Below are positions 56,695 to 64,000 of a stretch of DNA of 64,000 nucleotides, in pieces. The stretch comes from Candidatus Pacearchaeota archaeon. Lineage in GTDB: Archaea; Nanobdellota; Nanobdellia; Pacearchaeales; GW2011-AR1. A program made the position numbers and the translations under genes. The notes below the pieces were generated by a model. The model did no database searches, was not told the origin of the DNA, and was given only the letters and a program-made list of their open reading frames with translations. Position 1 is the first letter of the stretch, and each line of letters begins with the position of its first letter. The DNA lies in NCBI GenBank assembly GCA_016866975.1, contig VGKP01000002.1, forward strand, positions 1 to 64,000, read 5' to 3'.

Positions 56695-57957
56695 ATGCTC
56701 GATATCAGGCTGTTCCGTGAAAATCCTCAGATAATCAAAGAGAGTCAAAAGAAAAGAGGAATGCCTACTGAAGAAGTAGATCTTGTGATGAAGTTGGACA
56801 ATGAATGGAGGGCGCTCAAAGCAGAAGTTGACCACTTAAGAAATAAGCGCAATCAGGTTTCTAAGGAAATTAGCGAATTGAAGAAGAAAAGAAAGAAGGC
56901 AGACACGTTACTCAAAGAAGCAAAAAAGATTCCGAAGATGCTTATAGAGAAGGAGAACAAGATGAAGGAGCTTAATGAGAAACGCGACAATATTCTCAAA
57001 GAAATACCTAATATCATCGATCAATCTGTTCCACTCGGAGACGCTTCTCATAAAAAAGTCATCCTCGAGCATGGTAAGAATAAGTCAACATTCACTCATA
57101 AAGATCATGCAGATATTCTTGAAGCGCTCGATATGCTCGACACGCAAAAAGCATCTAATGTTGCAGGATCGCGCTTCTACTACTTGAAAGGTGACCTTGT
57201 GAAGCTCAATCTGGCCATTATGAGTTTTGCCTTAGATATCTTGCAGAAGAAAAGATTCACACTGGTGCAGCCACCGTATATGCTCCGCAAAGCAGCTCTT
57301 GAAGCAGCGCTGCCCCTCAAGGCATTTGAGGAAATGATTTATAAAATTGAAGGGGAGGACTTGTACTTAATAGGCACTGCGGAGCATGCGCTCAATGCAT
57401 ATGGCATTAATACCACATTCTCACCTGCAGAGCTTCCGCTTCGCCTTGCAGGGATTTCTCCTTGTTTTAGGAAGGAAGCGGGCTCGCACGGCAAGGACAC
57501 GAAAGGCATATTTAGGATCCATCAGTTTGAGAAGATCGAACAGTTTATTTTCTGCAAGCCTGAAGATTCATGGAGAGAGTTTGATCTCATCCTCAAAAAT
57601 TCAGAGGAAATTCTCAAGGCTCTTGAAATCCCCTTCCGGTTTGTCATCCTCTCATCTCAAGACATGGGGCGCGTTCCTACTAAAACGGTGGACTTTGAAG
57701 GTTGGTTCCCAAGCCAGAATGCTTACCGCGAACTGGGGTCATGCTCAAATTGTTTAGACTATCAGGCGCGGAGGAGCAACACCAAGTATCAGGACAATAA
57801 TGAATTCACATTCGTGCACACTCTTAATAACACAGCCATTGCAACTGAGCGCATGATGGCTTGCATTATAGATAATAACCAGCAGAAAGACGGCACAATA
57901 AAGATTCCAGAAGTCCTTCAGCCCTACATGAACGGCAAGAAAGTGATAGGAAATTAA
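56695..57957 (+). CDS. serS: Serine--tRNA ligase
   Basis: N-terminal coiled arm; LIGTAEH, CFRKEAG, GIFRIHQFEK, ELGSCSNC.DYQARR, HTLNNT.IA.ER. Confidence 0.97.
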   Translation: MLDIRLFRENPQIIKESQKKRGMPTEEVDLVMKLDNEWRALKAEVDHLRNKRNQVSKEISELKKKRKKADTLLKEAKKIPKMLIEKENKMKELNEKRDNILKEIPNIIDQSVPLGDASHKKVILEHGKNKSTFTHKDHADILEALDMLDTQKASNVAGSRFYYLKGDLVKLNLAIMSFALDILQKKRFTLVQPPYMLRKAALEAALPLKAFEEMIYKIEGEDLYLIGTAEHALNAYGINTTFSPAELPLRLAGISPCFRKEAGSHGKDTKGIFRIHQFEKIEQFIFCKPEDSWREFDLILKNSEEILKALEIPFRFVILSSQDMGRVPTKTVDFEGWFPSQNAYRELGSCSNCLDYQARRSNTKYQDNNEFTFVHTLNNTAIATERMMACIIDNNQQKDGTIKIPEVLQPYMNGKKVIGN

Positions 57958-58004
57958 GAAGAGAAAACAATTATCTTTAAAAGTGGGCATTCATCTTCTT
58001 TGAG

Positions 58005-59441
58005 ATGAATTTTAATTGGATTTTTAATCGTGATGAAAAAGTACCGCTCAATAATGATTCTTCGGAGAGAGTGGAAGGATTTGAGCACGAGTATGCGATT
58101 GAATTTGATGAGATCGCTGATAAAGATGAAAGAGACAACTATATTGTGCAGAAATTACGGGGAGCGGAGGGCGTTAATGCCCCCAATGTTTATGGTATGC
58201 CTGCGCGGCACCGTTTTAATGGAGGAAGAGTGCACATTGATATGAAACATCTTGAAGGGTGTACACCAGAAGTTACGAATACATTGGATTTACTGAAATA
58301 CGATCGAGAGTTAGACCTGTTTGTTCTTGATCTCTTTGGCCCAGCATACAAACCACGAATTTACAAAATGAGTAGGGACGCTCGCGATACATTTGGCGGA
58401 CTTCACAGAAACATCATGACTAGGCTTAAACCCGATGTTCGGGACAGAGAATCACTCTTACTTTGGGCAGTAGTGGAGAAAGTTCTCAATGGAACAGGTT
58501 ACCAGAATCCTGATGGCCAATACGAACTGCTTCAACGTCGCACATACATAGGAGATGCTCTATCAGACAACTCTACAGGGGGCAAAGGATCTCGGCCACT
58601 TCTTAATCTTAGGGAAGAGAGACACTGTAAGGTAGATGGATGGTACCGTTTTCATGATATTGCAGGCGATGGTAACATGAATCAGGTAGCACTTGCTCTT
58701 AGCCAGGTGCTCTGGAAATGTGTTCTACAGCTAGCAGAAGAAGATAAGCTGCCAAGAATCCCATATTATTCAGGAAAGCATTCAAATGAAGCCGTACGCG
58801 ATATGGATAGCATTTGCTGCCGCCACAGTGACTGGACTCTCAAAGGAACACCTCTTGAATTTAGATCTCTCACTTCTGTCTATCGCGAATTCTACAAAGT
58901 CATTAGAGGAGAGCTCTATGGTCAGAATACATTTACTGACAAAATAATTGATGTATTTGGAGACACAATTCCTGCTCTAGATAATATCAATAATGATCCC
59001 TATGCTCTTGCAGGAAGGCTCGATTGGGTGGGAAAGAAATTCATGATTGAATATTTTATGGGTGCAACAGGAAGAGGTCCTGAAAGCAATGAAGTACAGA
59101 GCCTTAATGTAGATTATCACCGTATTGACGAAGGAGGTTTGTTCCATCTTACACGTTTAAACGATGGGTGGATTGAGAACGAGGTTTCGGATAAAGAGGC
59201 GCGCACCGCCAGAAATACTCCTCCATTGACACGGGCGCATGCACGAGGAGAAATTGCACAAGCATTCTCAGAGATTGCCATGAAGAATGGATTATCCATT
59301 CTTGTTGACTGGGAATCAATTGCTCTTTACAATAAAAGTACATCTCCTGTCTGGACGTGCAATTTTCCCAGACCAGCACACACTTATGTTGAATGCGTGA
59401 GTGAATTCAAAAGTTTCATCAGTAATTGTTCCAAGGCATAA
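58005..59441 (+). CDS. Pup ligase/deamidase (PafA/Dop) family protein 1
   Basis: RVEGFEHEY, NGGRVHIDMKHLEGCTPE, GGLHRN, LQRR.YI, RPLLNLREERH, RFHDIAGDGN, LDWVGKK, DYHRID, PP.TRA.ARG, VDWE: all PafA/Dop motifs in order. Confidence 0.85.
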   Translation: MNFNWIFNRDEKVPLNNDSSERVEGFEHEYAIEFDEIADKDERDNYIVQKLRGAEGVNAPNVYGMPARHRFNGGRVHIDMKHLEGCTPEVTNTLDLLKYDRELDLFVLDLFGPAYKPRIYKMSRDARDTFGGLHRNIMTRLKPDVRDRESLLLWAVVEKVLNGTGYQNPDGQYELLQRRTYIGDALSDNSTGGKGSRPLLNLREERHCKVDGWYRFHDIAGDGNMNQVALALSQVLWKCVLQLAEEDKLPRIPYYSGKHSNEAVRDMDSICCRHSDWTLKGTPLEFRSLTSVYREFYKVIRGELYGQNTFTDKIIDVFGDTIPALDNINNDPYALAGRLDWVGKKFMIEYFMGATGRGPESNEVQSLNVDYHRIDEGGLFHLTRLNDGWIENEVSDKEARTARNTPPLTRAHARGEIAQAFSEIAMKNGLSILVDWESIALYNKSTSPVWTCNFPRPAHTYVECVSEFKSFISNCSKA

Positions 59442-59572
59442 ATTATTACTTTAAAATTCGTGGGGCCGTGGGTCAGTTTAGCAAAGCTTAAACCTTCGGG
59501 AGGTATGCACCTCATACACCAAATAAGCAATATAAACATATAAAATATTAAAAAGGGTTTATATTTGCCAAA

Positions 59573-61042
59573 TTGATGAAAGACAGGATTACACCTCGCG
59601 AAGCATTGGAAAGAAAAGCTGCCCCTCTCGTGTTTTTTGACCATATTCCTCAATATAACCGGAATCGAATAATCTCGAGTGAACAGGAGAATGGGCAGAA
59701 ATTAAGGAAAAAAGTGCATAAGGATTACGAAAAGAAAAGTGGTTGGGAGACCGAATTTACAGCATACTTGTCTGGATTTCTGCCAGATGTGGTGAGTCTT
59801 GGGGGAAGGATATATGCAGATGCAAACCATGTAGAGTTTGCACGGGCGGAATGCTCAAGCCCTCTGGAAGCAGTTGTTCACGAGGATGCTTTTGACAGGT
59901 TCGGTTTTAATCTTCTCACAGGCACCTTGAGACTTGTTCGTAAGCTCTATAAGAACAGTATAGATTTTGGCAATCCGAAAAGGAATTCTCCTCCTGTAAG
60001 CTTCGGCTTCCACGAAAATTACAGCACAAAAATAATGTTTGGCCAAAGCAATCCTTCAGGTTTGTTGGCATTGGTTCCTCACCTAATATCTCGTACAATC
60101 TTTGGGGGTGCAGGATCATTACATAAGGCAAATAAATTTTTAAGGGCCCAGCGCTCTCTCTTTGTTAATAAATTGTGGAGCTTTAATGCTATCAAGGACG
60201 AAAGAGGGATAATCTGCACTCGCGTACAGCCACACACAGAGATTTCTGGTCTTCAGAGGCTACAACTTACTTGTGGAGACGCCCTTATATCTCCAGTAAA
60301 TCGCTTCCTTCTTTATGGCACAACAGCAACGGTAGTTGACCTAATAGAAGATAGGATAATTCCATTATGTGATTATGACACAAGCTACGCAGTTGAAGAT
60401 TTTCATGGAATAACTTATGACCCTGAGAACTATATATTAAGAGGGTTCCCATCTAAGAATTGGACTGCTCTGGATGTACAAAGGAGGATTCTTGATAGTG
60501 CAATTAAGTCTTACTCGCATAGGGATCCTCAGACAAATGCCATTCTGTTTCTATGGGAAGATACTCTTAATAAGTTGGAATATGATCCATTTCAGCTTGT
60601 TGGAAGGCTAGATGCAATTACCAAGAAAGCATTATATACTTGTCTTGATGAGAGATTTCCAGATGTCCCTGAAGATTCTTTTTGGCAGATGAGGGGCATA
60701 GACATGAATTATCACGATATTAATCCAAACTATAGTATTTTTCAGGTAATGCGTTCCGAGGGGATTATGGAGGATTTATATTCCAATAAATTATTTTCAT
60801 GGTATATGCAAAATCCGCCTCCAAAAACCAGGGCGCATTTTAGGGGCAATCTTGCAAAAATTCTAATTAGGGCAAAAGAGGATTTAGCAGTCCTTGATGG
60901 AGATGAATGGGATAAATGCGTTCCATTATCAGATATCTACAATATTTATCCGAATCTATGGGATTTAGATCTTTCTATAGATGACCCGTTTAATTCTTAC
61001 AATGATCGTCTCACAGAGATAAAGGGAATTTTATCTCATTAA
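59573..61042 (+). CDS. Pup ligase/deamidase (PafA/Dop) family protein 2
   Basis: SGWETEF, GGRIYADANHVEFARAEC, GFHENY, AQRS.F, RGIICTRVQPH, RLQLTCGDA, LDAITKK, DMNYHDI, PPPKTRA.FRG, DEWD, IDDPF. Confidence 0.85.
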   Translation: MMKDRITPREALERKAAPLVFFDHIPQYNRNRIISSEQENGQKLRKKVHKDYEKKSGWETEFTAYLSGFLPDVVSLGGRIYADANHVEFARAECSSPLEAVVHEDAFDRFGFNLLTGTLRLVRKLYKNSIDFGNPKRNSPPVSFGFHENYSTKIMFGQSNPSGLLALVPHLISRTIFGGAGSLHKANKFLRAQRSLFVNKLWSFNAIKDERGIICTRVQPHTEISGLQRLQLTCGDALISPVNRFLLYGTTATVVDLIEDRIIPLCDYDTSYAVEDFHGITYDPENYILRGFPSKNWTALDVQRRILDSAIKSYSHRDPQTNAILFLWEDTLNKLEYDPFQLVGRLDAITKKALYTCLDERFPDVPEDSFWQMRGIDMNYHDINPNYSIFQVMRSEGIMEDLYSNKLFSWYMQNPPPKTRAHFRGNLAKILIRAKEDLAVLDGDEWDKCVPLSDIYNIYPNLWDLDLSIDDPFNSYNDRLTEIKGILSH

Positions 61043-61061
61043 CTTAAACGAGCCTAATTAT

Positions 61062-61179
61062 GTCGGGAACCGATGAAAATCACACCTTTCAAGGTATGGT
61101 GGTTCCCGAGCATCTCCAAAAACGAGCGCCTGCAACAAACCTCGGCTTTTAAGCCGAGGTGGCGCATCGTTTTTGTGAT
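61062..61179 (+). mobile_element. Diverged 118-bp member of the palindromic element family
   Basis: TTAT|GTC...TGAT; shares gagcatc..aaaaacgagcgcctgc and ggcgcatcgtttt; stems carry compensatory changes. Confidence 0.82.
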
Positions 61180-61714
61180 ATTTATATATACATAGAAGAA
61201 ATTGATGATGGAAATAGATATAATTCAGGTAATGAGTGATTAAGATGGAAAATGTTCTCTTGAAAATCAGGCAGAACTTAAACAAGTTACAATTAGGAGA
61301 ATTTATTATTGCAGAGATCTGTTAAGGTTCTTAGATGAAAGTAACAGGACAAATGTCTATATTCTTGATGGATTTTTTATCTTTCAAGGAAGGTCCAGAT
61401 TACGGGCCAGATTTTGTTACAGAGACAGCAACTGAAACCATAAAGGGGAGAGATGCATCCCCATTTATTCTCCGGTGCGCAAACTCACCTCAAGAGAAAA
61501 AAGCAAGAGAATTTGGCGTGAAATTTTTATAAGAGGTTTTCACAATAATGGAAAAGTTTTGCAGAGAGTTCAGCAACTTCTTCAAAATGCCAATAAAAAC
61601 CAAAATTCAAGGAAAAATCACTTCAGCATCCAGCATTTATGCCTAGAAAAGGCAAAGACTCCAATCAACAGCTGTCTTTATTTTAAATAAATTAAAAAGT
61701 AAGGAAATGTGTTT

Positions 61715-62915: not shown

Positions 62916-64000
62916 TCAAAATCCTCCAGCCATATGGAGTGGATTTTTTGCTTTGACCTGAAGGCCTCTTACAGCATCCAAAACTCTGGAATCAGGAGAT
63001 AATACAAAGACATGGTCATCTTTTGAGCGCAATGCTCTATATATTCTTTGAAGGAATTCTCTTCTTGCCTTATCCCTGTAGAAATCCCAAAAATATTTCT
63101 CATGTGTCTTCTGTAATATCTTCCAGAAAACGCCATTGACATTAGGATTGGGATATTTTGTGAATACGACTGAATTGCAGATGTCTCCTGGAAAATCTAC
63201 TCCTCTCGAGCATTTTGTCGTGAATAATATAGAAGATTTTCTTTCTTTGAATTCTGAGACCATTTTCCCAGTCTTGTCTTCTGTTTGCAGGGCCATCAGC
63301 CTTTCTCTGGACATCAGATTGTCTAAGCGAAGGATGTGTAATTCCTGCTCTGTAGGGAGATCTTCAAACGCATTGACATGTACCAAAGTAGGTCTCTTTG
63401 CTTTGTCTATGCATAGTGATAATGTTTTGAGATATTCATCTCTGGAATGTTTGCCTGAACTGAAATTTGAATACCTGCAATCAAATTCTTTTCCTGTCCT
63501 ATGAATCTCTATATTGCCTTGCGGCATCGTCTCAGCTTCCACTATCTCAAAGTCATCTATCCCGAATATTTCTTTAAGGACAATTGAGGAATGAAGAGTC
63601 CCAGACATCATGACTAAAGACTTGTTTTTCTTTACAATCTCTTGAAATTTCTTAGAAAGGTTCGTCGTGACAAGATTGACAAAGATATCTTTATCGACTC
63701 TTTTGTATGTGATGTATGTATCTTCAATAAAGTCTATGAAATTCTTCGCCACTTCTATGGCTTTATTGGCATAATGCATCTCGTCTATGGCAATCTCGGC
63801 CTCTATTTCTGGATGTTTTAGAAACATCTTGAGTATCTTTTCCCATTGAGTTTCTTTTATAGGGTAAATCTTGTTCTCGTTTATGCCCAACGCCTGCTTG
63901 TTTTTTTCTTCAAGTCCGAGCAGGTTCTCAATTGATTCCACAAGAACGCGCGCTTCTGGATGTTCAGGAGTTATTGAAGAAAGGGATGAAGAAAGGCGAG
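62916..64000 (-). CDS. DinG/XPD-like helicase, C-terminal part (5' truncated by window edge)
   Basis: Frame open to the window end; VMMSGTL, SRGVDFPG, KYPNP, QRIYRALRSKDD (motifs III, V, VI). Confidence 0.75.
   Translation of the reverse strand, partial: RLSSSLSSITPEHPEARVLVESIENLLGLEEKNKQALGINENKIYPIKETQWEKILKMFLKHPEIEAEIAIDEMHYANKAIEVAKNFIDFIEDTYITYKRVDKDIFVNLVTTNLSKKFQEIVKKNKSLVMMSGTLHSSIVLKEIFGIDDFEIVEAETMPQGNIEIHRTGKEFDCRYSNFSSGKHSRDEYLKTLSLCIDKAKRPTLVHVNAFEDLPTEQELHILRLDNLMSRERLMALQTEDKTGKMVSEFKERKSSILFTTKCSRGVDFPGDICNSVVFTKYPNPNVNGVFWKILQKTHEKYFWDFYRDKARREFLQRIYRALRSKDDHVFVLSPDSRVLDAVRGLQVKAKNPLHMAGGF

What the first reader, a model, noticed from the sequence alone, without database searches (positions are those of the whole stretch)
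58005..61042. Tandem PafA/Dop-family genes: a candidate pupylation-like conjugation system in a DPANN archaeon
Both ORFs carry the full ordered motif series of Pup ligase/deamidase enzymes: GxExE, GxRxYxD..HxE, GxHxN, QR, RxxxH, R(L/F)(H/Q)..GD, LDxxxKK, YHxI, PPxTRAxxRG and a late Trp. Pupylation (Pup, PafA, Dop, Mpa/ARC, 20S proteasome) is established in Actinobacteria and Nitrospira, with UBact in some other bacteria; archaea are known to use SAMP or ubiquitin-like modifiers. A divergent pair, like ligase plus depupylase, in a reduced archaeal genome suggests an unrecognised tagging system feeding the archaeal proteasome, acting on host proteins, or using another substrate. I found no Pup-like GG(E/Q)-ending ORF, proteasome subunit or ATPase nearby.
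Basis: partly seen in the sequence, partly recalled or inferred. Interest (0 to 1): 0.88.

Follow-up and report, generated by a model that had tools for sequence, protein, structure and literature searches.

The report
Orphan Pup-ligase gene pair in archaeon
A tiny-genome (DPANN, Pacearchaeota-like) archaeon carries two neighbouring, apparently active relatives of the bacterial protein-tagging enzyme PafA. It has no detectable tag (Pup), no tag-removing enzyme and no matching unfoldase, so the pair looks like leftover ligases of an archaeal Pup system that related archaea still have complete.

Summary
Window 58005-59441 (A, 478 aa) and 59576-61042 (B, 488 aa) are genuine PF03136 proteins (144 and 204 bits). 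Their confident models match Dop and PafA structures (TM 0.72-0.82), far above GCL, YbdK and GS. The contig is archaeal and the locus is syntenic in relatives, so this is not contamination.

The "ligase plus depupylase" reading is not supported:
- Both proteins lack the Dop-loop and both score far below the PafA and Dop equivalog cut-offs.
- They are only about 21% identical, fall in different subclades, and either type occurs alone after serS in relatives.
- The closest relatives have neither gene.
- No Pup, UBact, Mpa/ARC or long-loop Dop-like gene is detectable in the genome (89% complete) or in 60 relatives, even with a new archaeal Pup profile.

A and B belong to a short-loop radiation shared by DPANN archaea and CPR bacteria. 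That radiation also contains the ligase of complete archaeal cassettes (proteasomal-type AAA ATPase, Dop-like, Pup-like ORF, PafA-like). I found these cassettes in same-class genomes and in metagenomic contigs.

Best reading: A and B are accessory, Pup-less descendants of that ligase. B is nearer the canonical form and A has a remodelled active site. The acyl donor is unknown. The scan has reported the same theme on other genomes.

The parts
58005..59441 (+). Gene A: 478-aa short-loop PF03136 (PafA-type) paralogue, the remodelled 'A-type'
   Evidence: PF03136 144 bits. AF2 pLDDT 89.4; Foldseek top hits are Dop and PafA at TM 0.77-0.82. In Acel Dop numbering it keeps E8, E10, R90, D94, E99, H155, N157, R227, H231, R239, H241 and D247, but has Y92->H and E156->R. 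E10->D94 spacing is 50 residues, so there is no Dop-loop. The invariant PFxxTRQ motif is replaced by LWxxVEK, and A keeps only 58% of the 78 positions invariant in Pup-linked ligases. Nearest relatives are P0016 (about 45%) and L019/G008 (43%), in a clade with 100 SH-aLRT support.
59576..61042 (+). Gene B: 488-aa short-loop PF03136 (PafA-type) paralogue, the more canonical 'B-type' (an alternative TTG start lies at 59573)
   Evidence: PF03136 204 bits. AF2 pLDDT 93.1, pTM 0.94; Foldseek top hits are Dop and PafA at TM 0.72-0.80. It keeps the whole catalytic set except H241->Q. E10->D94 spacing is 44 residues, so there is no Dop-loop. It keeps 71% of the positions invariant in Pup-linked ligases. 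Sister to P0003 (39%, 99 SH-aLRT), which sits directly after serS in its own contig.
56695..57957 (+). serS (seryl-tRNA synthetase): the conserved upstream anchor of the variable slot that holds A and B
   Evidence: TIGR00414 477 bits. serS is followed by a PF03136 gene in L014, L015, L016, L018, L019, L149 and L150. It is followed by other genes or directly by TM74 in 10 genus members that lack PF03136.
57973..57983 (+). AT-rich TTTAAAA-type box about 25 nt upstream of A's ATG; possible archaeal promoter (inferred)
   Evidence: Sequence read. The serS-A gap is 47 bp. No functional test was done.
59442..59575 (+). A-B spacer (134 bp), unique in the genome, with an AT-rich stretch at 59540-59566 before B's start; B may have its own promoter (inferred)
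   Evidence: Sequence read. No other copy in the genome. No Rfam match.
61055..61190 (.). Copy of a dispersed repeat of about 125 bp, immediately after B's stop codon
   Evidence: blastn against the whole assembly finds more than 60 copies at up to 98% identity, many at contig ends.
61715..61939 (-). 74-aa two-helix membrane protein (TM74): the conserved downstream boundary of the slot, not a modifier
   Evidence: 52-61% identical in L014, L019, L170, L171 and L176. Its C-termini differ (ITE, LTK, LGR). It is also present in genomes without PF03136.
62916..63998 (-). Rad3/XPD-like helicase (cut by the window end): syntenic flank
   Evidence: Helicase_C_2. 63-81% identical in L018, L019, L171, L175 and L176.

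Best explanation
A and B are two anciently diverged paralogues of the short-loop (PafA-type) branch of the Pup-ligase family. They descend from the ligase of an archaeal Pup system: a cassette of proteasomal-type AAA ATPase, long-loop Dop-like enzyme, Pup-like 58-86-aa ORF and short-loop PafA-like ligase, which same-class archaea still carry. In this Pacearchaeota-like lineage the tag, the Dop-like enzyme and the ATPase are gone. The ligase genes persist as accessory genes in a variable slot between serS and a small membrane-protein gene.

Shown: family, fold, a near-complete ATP/Mg/catalytic-Asp site, lack of a Dop-loop, synteny, presence/absence polymorphism, lack of any detectable Pup or UBact, and the existence of complete cassettes in relatives.

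Inferred: both proteins still perform the family's chemistry. ATP-dependent phosphorylation of a glutamate-type side-chain carboxylate is followed by attack of an amine, most likely a protein lysine. The acyl donor would be something other than a dedicated, locus-encoded Pup. B is the more canonical enzyme. A is a neofunctionalised copy whose substrate-side motifs (HEN->HRN, TRQ->VEK, Y92->H) have changed. The two act independently, not as a ligase/deconjugase couple.
For: Family and fold:
- PF03136 at 144 and 204 bits.
- Foldseek top ten hits are all Dop or PafA at TM 0.65-0.82 and E 1e-18 to 1e-26, against TM 0.45 or less for YbdK, GCL and GS.

Active site:
- Of the catalytic and Mg-ligand residues listed for Dop in PMC8599861 (E8, E10, Y92, E99, H155, H241, D94, R227), A keeps all but Y92 and B keeps all but H241.
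- E10->D94 spacing is 50 (A) and 44 (B), against 78-90 in Dop and 46-60 in PafA.

Phylogeny:
- A and B fall in separate well-supported subclades of a radiation outside the bacterial PafA and Dop clades. That radiation also holds the cassette ligases G441b, G111b, P0021, P0011 and P0014, and CPR proteins.

Cassettes in archaeal contexts:
- Found in L135, L132, L180, L181 and L182.
- Their small ORFs share ...LLD[EG]I[DE]xL...YxQ[PQS][GS]G[QE]. As a profile they match a bona fide Pup by hhalign at 88.8% probability, E 2.5e-6.

Orphan status:
- No Pup, UBact or archaeal-Pup profile hit in any frame of the genome, in 60 relatives, or beside 13 orphan genes.
- The same scan finds UBact in nearly all Poribacteria, Latescibacterota and Gemmatimonadota loci used as control; most Nitrospira loci showed none.
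- No ARC/Mpa or PAN. Only two PF03136 genes in the genome.

Accessory nature:
- PF03136 is found in 8 of 61 relatives and 10 of 401 phylum genomes.
- Ten genus members, including the three closest by SerRS, show clean absence after serS with no remnants.
- Either type occurs alone.
- GC content equals that of the neighbours.
Against: - No activity, expression or substrate data exist.
- The assembly is 89% complete, and Pup-like genes are short and fast-evolving. A divergent tag encoded elsewhere cannot be excluded.
- Orphans keep 58-85% of the positions invariant in Pup-linked ligases. That could mean a Pup-like partner is still bound.
- Deep branches of the tree are poorly supported (35 of 82 open) and the root is only a midpoint. 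Descent from a cassette ligase is therefore the most economical reading, not a demonstrated direction.
- A's substitutions (E156R, TRQ->VEK) and B's H241Q could reduce or abolish catalysis.
Confidence: 0.55

Rival explanations
1. A working pupylation-like tagging system. A and/or B attach a small disordered tag, encoded elsewhere in the genome or too divergent to recognise, to lysines of cellular proteins. Tagged proteins then go to the archaeal 20S proteasome through the Cdc48-like ATPase.
For: - Complete cassettes with Pup-like ORFs exist in same-class archaea, and a same-family genome (G300) has a ligase followed by a 60-aa ORF ending YRQPSGE.
- The genome has 20S subunits and a Cdc48-like ATPase.
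- An A-clade relative (P0031) lies directly downstream of Cdc48.
- Orphans retain most positions invariant in Pup-linked ligases.
- The genome is only 89% complete.
Against: - In bacteria Pup is reported as invariably adjacent to a PafA-family gene (PMC2588565), and it is adjacent in every archaeal cassette seen here. No small ORF recurs beside 13 orphan genes.
- No hit with Pup, UBact or archaeal-Pup profiles in the genome or in any of the seven relatives that carry the ligase.
- No Mpa-like receptor ATPase.
- The gene is dispensable in the closest relatives.
Confidence: 0.2
2. Small-molecule amidoligases. The orphan branch has left protein tagging and ligates glutamate, or another carboxylate, to a metabolite amine, as its distant relatives GCL, YbdK and GS do.
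For: - The family belongs to the carboxylate-amine ligase superfamily (PMC2588565; Foldseek tail hits).
- The same radiation occurs in CPR bacteria (Parcubacteria, Taylorbacteria). No tag or ATPase lies next to the gene there, and CPR are not known to have proteasomes (my own knowledge).
- Substrate-side motifs are changed in the A-type.
Against: - The C-terminal domain and the open beta-sheet cradle of PafA/Dop are fully retained (TM up to 0.82 over the whole chain).
- No metabolic gene is consistently linked.
- The patchy accessory distribution is unlike that of a core metabolic step.
Confidence: 0.12
3. One reading: A and B are a functional couple, one a ligase and the other a deamidase/deconjugase, analogous to PafA plus Dop.
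For: - Two diverged paralogues lie side by side on one strand.
- B scores slightly better against the Dop model than the PafA model (160 vs 133 bits).
- The two carry different single changes among the residues checked (A: Y92H and E156R; B: H241Q).
Against: - The Dop-loop, present in all Dop orthologues and absent from all PafA homologues (PMC8599861), is absent from both.
- Genuine long-loop/short-loop pairs exist in G111, G441, G268 and L180-L182 and look different.
- Relatives keep only A-type or only B-type.
- Both fall in the short-loop radiation.
Confidence: 0.05
4. Decaying relics with no present function.
For: - Partners have been lost and the distribution is patchy, with repeated clean losses.
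- A's active-site neighbourhood is altered.
Against: - Both ORFs are full length with no stops, and their models are confident and complete (pLDDT 89-93).
- Catalytic residues are conserved across homologues that are only 25-45% identical.
- The A orthologue pair (43%) has diverged no faster than SerRS (46%) between the same genomes.
Confidence: 0.05

Closest known systems
PafA, the Pup-protein ligase of Actinobacteria and Nitrospira (TIGR03686; PDB 4B0T, 4BJR)
   Same: Same Pfam family and fold. Same two-domain architecture with the C-terminal PPxxTRAxxRG...W module. Short beta1-beta2 connection with no Dop-loop. Same Mg/ATP ligands and catalytic Asp.
   Different: Scores of 103-133 bits against a 551-bit cut-off. 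Outside the PafA clade. No adjacent or genomic Pup and no Mpa. Archaeal host. A has HRN for HEN and VEK for TRQ; B has Gln for His241.
Dop, the Pup deamidase/depupylase (TIGR03688; PDB 4B0R, 5LRT, 7OXV-7OYH, 9CKU)
   Same: Best PDB matches by sequence and fold. Same catalytic residues.
   Different: Lacks the 40-65-residue Dop-loop with its conserved Trp (spacing 44-50 vs 78-90 residues). Scores of 98-160 bits against a 492-bit cut-off.
UBact-linked Dop/PafA pairs of Poribacteria, Latescibacterota, Gemmatimonadota, Nitrospirota, Verrucomicrobiota and Armatimonadota
   Same: These are the nearest named genome relatives of the archaeal proteins (35-40% identity). They also occur as two paralogues on one strand.
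   Different: In most of those loci (nearly all Poribacteria, Latescibacterota and Gemmatimonadota; most Nitrospira loci showed none) the pair brackets a UBact gene ending RYRQR[TS]G[EQ], and 1.5-5 kb lie between the two genes (not annotated here). One member has the Dop-loop. None of this holds for the window.
Archaeal Pup cassette: proteasomal-type AAA ATPase, long-loop Dop-like, Pup-like ORF, short-loop ligase. Seen here in G441, G111, L180, L181 and L182. An earlier report of this scan describes one in a Woesearchaeote. I found no paper describing it.
   Same: The cassette's short-loop ligase belongs to the same radiation as A and B. The hosts are archaeal and of the same class.
   Different: The window has only ligase-type genes: no ATPase, no long-loop enzyme and no Pup-like ORF.
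YbdK / gamma-glutamylcysteine ligase / glutamine synthetase (carboxylate-amine ligase superfamily)
   Same: Shared core fold and chemistry (PMC2588565).
   Different: Only remote similarity (TM 0.45 or less, E 7e-6 or worse). These lack the PafA/Dop C-terminal domain.

Membership tests
Pup-ligase superfamily (Pfam PF03136) | Match to the family HMM above the gathering score (25 bits) | tested here: met
   A 144.4 bits, B 204.1 bits. These are the only two hits in the genome.
Pup-ligase superfamily (Pfam PF03136) | PafA/Dop two-domain fold, clearly nearer to it than to GCL or GS | tested here: met
   AF2 pLDDT 93.1 and 89.4. Foldseek finds Dop and PafA at TM 0.65-0.82 and E 1e-18 to 1e-26; the next folds score TM 0.45 or less.
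Pup-ligase superfamily (Pfam PF03136) | Mg/ATP ligands and catalytic Asp (Acel Dop E8, E10, Y92, D94, E99, H155, R227, H241; PMC8599861) | tested here: met
   A keeps 7 of 8 (Y92H) and B keeps 7 of 8 (H241Q). Catalytic competence itself was not tested.
PafA (Pup-protein ligase, TIGR03686 equivalog) | Score at or above the curated cut-off (551.3 bits) | tested here: not met
   A 103.2, B 133.3 bits. Controls: L092 703 and Nitrospira moscoviensis g2 565.
PafA (Pup-protein ligase, TIGR03686 equivalog) | No Dop-loop (short beta1-beta2 connection) | tested here: met
   E10->D94 spacing is 50 (A) and 44 (B), against 46-60 in PafA references.
PafA (Pup-protein ligase, TIGR03686 equivalog) | A Pup gene adjacent to a PafA-family gene (Iyer et al. 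2008, PMC2588565) | tested here: not met
   No Pup-like ORF in the locus, the genome or relatives.
PafA (Pup-protein ligase, TIGR03686 equivalog) | Branches within the PafA clade | tested here: not met
   Both lie in a separate short-loop DPANN/CPR radiation. Deep nodes are weakly supported.
Dop (depupylase/deamidase, TIGR03688 equivalog) | Dop-loop of 40-65 residues before beta2, present in all Dop orthologues (PMC8599861) | tested here: not met
   Spacing is 44-50 residues, against 78-90 in Dop references and 77-127 in archaeal long-loop enzymes.
Dop (depupylase/deamidase, TIGR03688 equivalog) | Score at or above the curated cut-off (492.3 bits) | tested here: not met
   A 98, B 159.7 bits.
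Pup-proteasome system (Pup, PafA, Dop, Mpa/ARC, 20S) | Pup or UBact modifier gene present | tested here: not met
   PF05639, TIGR03687 and NF033388 give no hit. My own UBact and archaeal-Pup HMMs give a best E of 1.1 or no hit over all 22,769 frames of 20 aa or more; the UBact scan works on bacterial control loci. The genome is 89% complete.
Pup-proteasome system (Pup, PafA, Dop, Mpa/ARC, 20S) | Mpa/ARC-type ATPase | tested here: not met
   TIGR03689 matches only the AAA cores of one Cdc48-like 770-aa ORF (236 bits against a 505-bit cut-off). No PAN above cut-off.
Pup-proteasome system (Pup, PafA, Dop, Mpa/ARC, 20S) | 20S proteasome subunits | tested here: met
   Three PF00227 matches on contigs C10 and C14, not linked to the locus.
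Pup-proteasome system (Pup, PafA, Dop, Mpa/ARC, 20S) | ATP-dependent formation of Glu-Lys isopeptide bonds on target proteins | not testable with these tools
   Needs biochemistry or proteomics.

The most novel reading that the evidence does not exclude
The Pup-less short-loop ligases shared by DPANN archaea and CPR bacteria, both ultra-small episymbionts from two domains, form a distinct protein-conjugation system. It would use a donor other than Pup, for example a C-terminal glutamate of an ordinary protein or a host-derived protein. It would have spread between these lineages as an accessory trait linked to the symbiotic lifestyle. In that case A and B would be two specificities of this system rather than relics of pupylation.
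Probability: 0.15. Interest if true: 0.85.

Novelty: new variant of a known kind. Interest (0 to 1): 0.6.

Why it matters
Pupylation is described in the literature as a bacterial invention. Reviews place it in Actinobacteria and a few other phyla, and my searches of the held paper library found no report from archaea or CPR.

This locus and its relatives show three things:
- The enzyme family is a long-term resident of DPANN archaea.
- Some of these archaea have whole cassettes with a Pup-like tag that current Pup and UBact models do not recognise.
- A large branch of the family, in both DPANN and CPR, has lost the tag yet keeps an intact active site.

This bears on where Pup and the bacterial proteasome system came from. 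It also points to an unknown substrate for a widespread, uncharacterised branch of ATP-dependent isopeptide ligases. A and B offer a natural pair, one near-canonical and one remodelled, for testing what such enzymes do without Pup.

Tried and rejected
- **TM74 as the modifier.** The 74-aa ORF downstream ends in Glu in the window, but its C-terminus is not conserved and it also occurs in genomes without the ligase. Rejected.
- **B's N-terminal 55 residues as a fused Pup-like extension.** Rejected. The true first motif is at residues 32-41 and the lead is shared by relatives.
- **Unusually fast evolution or an arms race.** Rejected. The A orthologue pair is 43% identical against 46% for SerRS. 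The 25-35% values are between paralogous types.
- **Defence system.** PADLOC gives no hit for A or B.
- **RNA gene or riboswitch in the gaps.** No Rfam match at E up to 1.
- **G[EQ]-ending ORFs genome-wide.** 20 of 5,990 small ORFs and 129 of 37,247 frames, none Pup-like. The two in real genes are ribosomal proteins L10e and S24e.
- **L136's 60-aa ORF as UBact.** It is not detected by NF033388 or by a bacterial-only UBact HMM, and it has no homologues in the 5.8-billion-protein set. I keep it only as a probable member of the archaeal Pup-like group.
- **The search for related loci with alignment A1** failed for lack of conserved stretches. I repeated it with A2.
- **Complex prediction** (G441 ligase with its Pup-like ORF) was not available, so no binding test was made.
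- **The listing of cluster members** gave no taxonomy.
- **Literature searches** for archaeal or CPR pupylation found nothing relevant.
- **G062** (unpublished) was touched. No claim in this report rests on it.


Full report
**What is there.** Two ORFs lie on the + strand directly downstream of serS.
- A is 58005-59441 (478 aa).
- B is 59576-61042 (488 aa from the ATG; a TTG lies one codon upstream).
- Both match Pfam PF03136 (Pup_ligase) far above threshold, at 144 and 204 bits.
- They are the only two such genes in the 0.81-Mb, 31-contig assembly, which is 89% complete and 0.5% contaminated.
- By sequence their best PDB matches are Dop and PafA (B 6e-34, A 5e-20).
- AlphaFold models built on family alignments are confident (B pLDDT 93.1, pTM 0.94; A pLDDT 89.4, pTM 0.91).
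- In Foldseek the ten best PDB entries for each are Dop or PafA (TM 0.65-0.82, E 1e-18 to 1e-26). YbdK, GCL and GS follow only at TM 0.45 or less and E 7e-6 or worse.

**The host is an archaeon and the genes belong to it.**
- The contig also carries Spt5, an archaeal-type L11 and a PACE-CTERM S-layer protein.
- A same-family genome is named Candidatus Pacearchaeota by NCBI.
- The gene order Na+/H+ exchanger, serS, PF03136 gene, 74-aa membrane protein, Rad3-like helicase recurs in five relatives' loci. Neighbours there are 45-81% identical. It also recurs in two metagenomic contigs.
- A and B have the GC content of their neighbours.
- Contamination is excluded.

**Motifs.** One assignment needs correcting.
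- In B the first motif is RIISSEQENG (E37, E39). It aligns with RIxGxExExG of all relatives and forms strand 34-39 in the model.
- GWETEF at residues 57-62 lies in the helical connection.
- B therefore has no Pup-sized N-terminal extension.
- I mapped the residues named for Acidothermus Dop in PMC8599861 (Mg ligands E8, E10, Y92, E99, H155, H241; catalytic D94; R227). A keeps all but Y92 (His) and additionally has HRN for HEN. B keeps all but H241 (Gln).

**Neither protein is a Dop.**
- The Dop-loop is a 40-65-residue insertion before strand beta2. It is described as present in all Dop orthologues and absent from all PafA homologues (PMC8599861).
- The E10-to-D94 spacing is 78-90 residues in four Dop references and 46-60 in four PafA references. 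It is 50 in A and 44 in B.
- Both also score far below the NCBIfam equivalog cut-offs: PafA 103 and 133 against 551; Dop 98 and 160 against 492. Nitrospira and actinobacterial controls pass.

**Where they sit in the family.**
- An exhaustive HMMER search with an archaeal profile found 6,821 family representatives.
- I built a FastTree of 184 sequences and an IQ-TREE (LG+C20 PMSF, quick) of 85 sequences.
- In both trees A and B lie outside the bacterial PafA and Dop clades, in a large radiation of 430-490-aa short-loop proteins.
- A groups with P0030, P0016 and the G008 orthologue (100 SH-aLRT). B groups with P0003 (99).
- A and B are only about 21% identical to each other, so they are old paralogues and not a recent tandem duplication.
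- The radiation contains proteins in archaeal contexts. P0031, for example, lies directly downstream of a Cdc48 gene.
- It also contains proteins in bacterial small-genome contexts. Named relatives of these are Parcubacteria and Candidatus Taylorbacteria, both CPR.
- Deep nodes are weakly supported and the root is a midpoint only.

**Complete archaeal Pup cassettes exist in relatives.**
- PF03136 occurs in only 10 of 401 genomes sampled from the phylum.
- Some same-class genomes (G441, G111) and three metagenomic contigs in archaeal contexts (L180, L181, L182) carry four genes in a row on one strand. The context markers are ribosomal L34e, Pelota, archaeal PheRS, diphthamide synthase and a Drg GTPase. 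The four genes are:
  1. an AAA ATPase with proteasomal-ATPase OB domains;
  2. a long-loop, Dop-like PF03136 enzyme (spacing 77-97 in G441a and G111a);
  3. a 58-86-aa ORF;
  4. a short-loop PF03136 ligase that belongs to the same radiation as A and B.
- The small ORFs share a C-terminal module...LLD[EG]I[DE]xL... Y-x-Q-[PQS]-[GS]-G-[QE].
- Pfam's Pup model sees only one of them, below threshold (E 0.04). NCBIfam returned no Pup or UBact hit for the two small ORFs scanned there, those of L136 and L134.
- As a profile they align to a bona fide Pup (L080, Pfam 78 bits) with 88.8% probability and E 2.5e-6. They align more weakly to UBact (E 0.0017).
- A same-family genome (G300) has a ligase followed by a 60-aa ORF ending YRQPSGE and a C39-like peptidase.
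- The broad idea of archaeal pupylation-like systems is therefore supported, but in other genomes.

**The window's genes are orphans.**
- My small-ORF scan recovers UBact (ending RYRQR[TS]G[EQ]) next to the Dop-like gene in nearly all Poribacteria, Latescibacterota and Gemmatimonadota control loci; most Nitrospira loci showed none.
- The same scan, plus Pfam and NCBIfam Pup/UBact models and two custom HMMs, finds nothing in any frame of the window's genome.
- It finds nothing in 60 relatives, including the seven that carry the ligase.
- It finds nothing recurrent within 1.5 kb of 13 orphan genes.
- There is no long-loop enzyme and no Mpa/ARC or PAN. The genome has only a Cdc48-like ATPase and three 20S subunit genes, all elsewhere.

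**The genes are accessory.**
- Within the genus, serS is followed by A+B (this genome), A-type only (G008; P0016's contig), B-type or its relatives only (G002, G011, G013; P0003's contig), unrelated genes, or directly by the membrane-protein gene (G014).
- The three genomes closest by SerRS identity (69-73%) lack PF03136. No remnants are detectable in six frames.
- A dispersed repeat of about 125 bp with more than 60 genomic copies sits right after B's stop codon.
- Either paralogue alone suffices in relatives, so an obligate ligase/deconjugase couple is unlikely.

**How far A and B have drifted.**
- Seventy-eight alignment positions are identical in at least 15 of 16 Pup-linked short-loop ligases (11 bacterial, 5 archaeal cassette).
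- B keeps 71% of these, A keeps 58%, other archaeal orphans keep 62-85% and CPR orphans keep 74-85%.
- The whole A-type lineage has replaced the invariant PFxxTRQ by L[WF]xxVEK and HEN by H[RQL]N.
- I read B as the more canonical enzyme and A as a copy with altered substrate handling. This is inference.

**Conclusion.**
- These are true, probably active, PafA-type members of the Pup-ligase family in a DPANN archaeon, most economically explained as Pup-less descendants of the ligase of an archaeal Pup cassette.
- What they ligate is unknown.
Nothing here measures activity or expression.
- Earlier reports of this scan on other genomes reached concordant readings: a complete system in a Woesearchaeote, and orphan post-serS ligases in Pacearchaeota. 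My results were obtained independently of them.

Noticed in passing
window 61055-61190: A dispersed repeat of about 125 bp lies immediately after B's stop codon. The assembly holds more than 60 copies at up to 98% identity, many at contig ends, which suggests a MITE-like element that breaks the assembly. The rest of the 670-bp gap (61043-61714) has no conserved ORF and no Rfam match.
   Followed up: partly
L135:3825-9348; L132:8862-12662; L180:2280-8073; L181:2390-7383; L182:2346-7548: Archaeal four-gene cassettes: proteasomal-type AAA ATPase, long-loop Dop-like, 58-86-aa Pup-like ORF, short-loop ligase. The Pup-like ORFs end Y-x-Q-[PQS]-[GS]-G-Q and are missed by the Pfam Pup model. P0014's version occurs on at least 24 contigs.
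   Followed up: partly
L136:9311-11481 (G300, same family as the window): A PF03136 gene is followed by a 60-aa ORF ending YRQPSGE and then a C39-like cysteine peptidase (NF033920, 49 bits). A C39 peptidase also lies about 2 kb from the ligase in the bacterial-context contig L113. This may be a processing or deconjugating partner.
   Followed up: no
L134:8343-14464 (G268, same class): A bacterial-type cluster: PafA-like, ARC/Mpa-like ATPase (TIGR03689 288 bits), Dop-like with a 127-residue loop, an 83-aa ORF ending EKSGQ, and a bacterial-type 20S beta subunit (TIGR03690 159 bits vs archaeal 65). I did not check whether this contig is truly archaeal or a binning contaminant.
   Followed up: no
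L114:7550-11320: An A-clade orphan ligase (P0031) sits 138 bp downstream of a 770-aa Cdc48 gene on the same strand in an archaeal contig. This is the only hint of a link between an orphan and an unfoldase.
   Followed up: no
post-serS slot in genus members: L171:1387-2307, L176:4717-6807, L019:9400-10167: The slot between serS and the TM74/helicase genes holds different cargo in different species. One 144-aa protein matches PADLOC candidate PDC-S07 (E 9e-7) and one 212-aa protein weakly matches Csa3. A 121-aa PIN-like gene often abuts serS.
   Followed up: partly
G000 C1:87133-87696 and C30:476-745 (L147, L148): Ribosomal proteins L10e and S24e of this genome end in ...FQKAGQ and ...KVEGQ. I take this as coincidence, but they are the only real genes in the genome with a Gly-Gln end among those flagged.
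   Followed up: partly
window 59442-59540: The A-B spacer contains a GC-rich stretch (GTGGGGCCGTGGGTCAG...) within otherwise AT-rich DNA. It is unique in the genome. I did not fold it.
   Followed up: no
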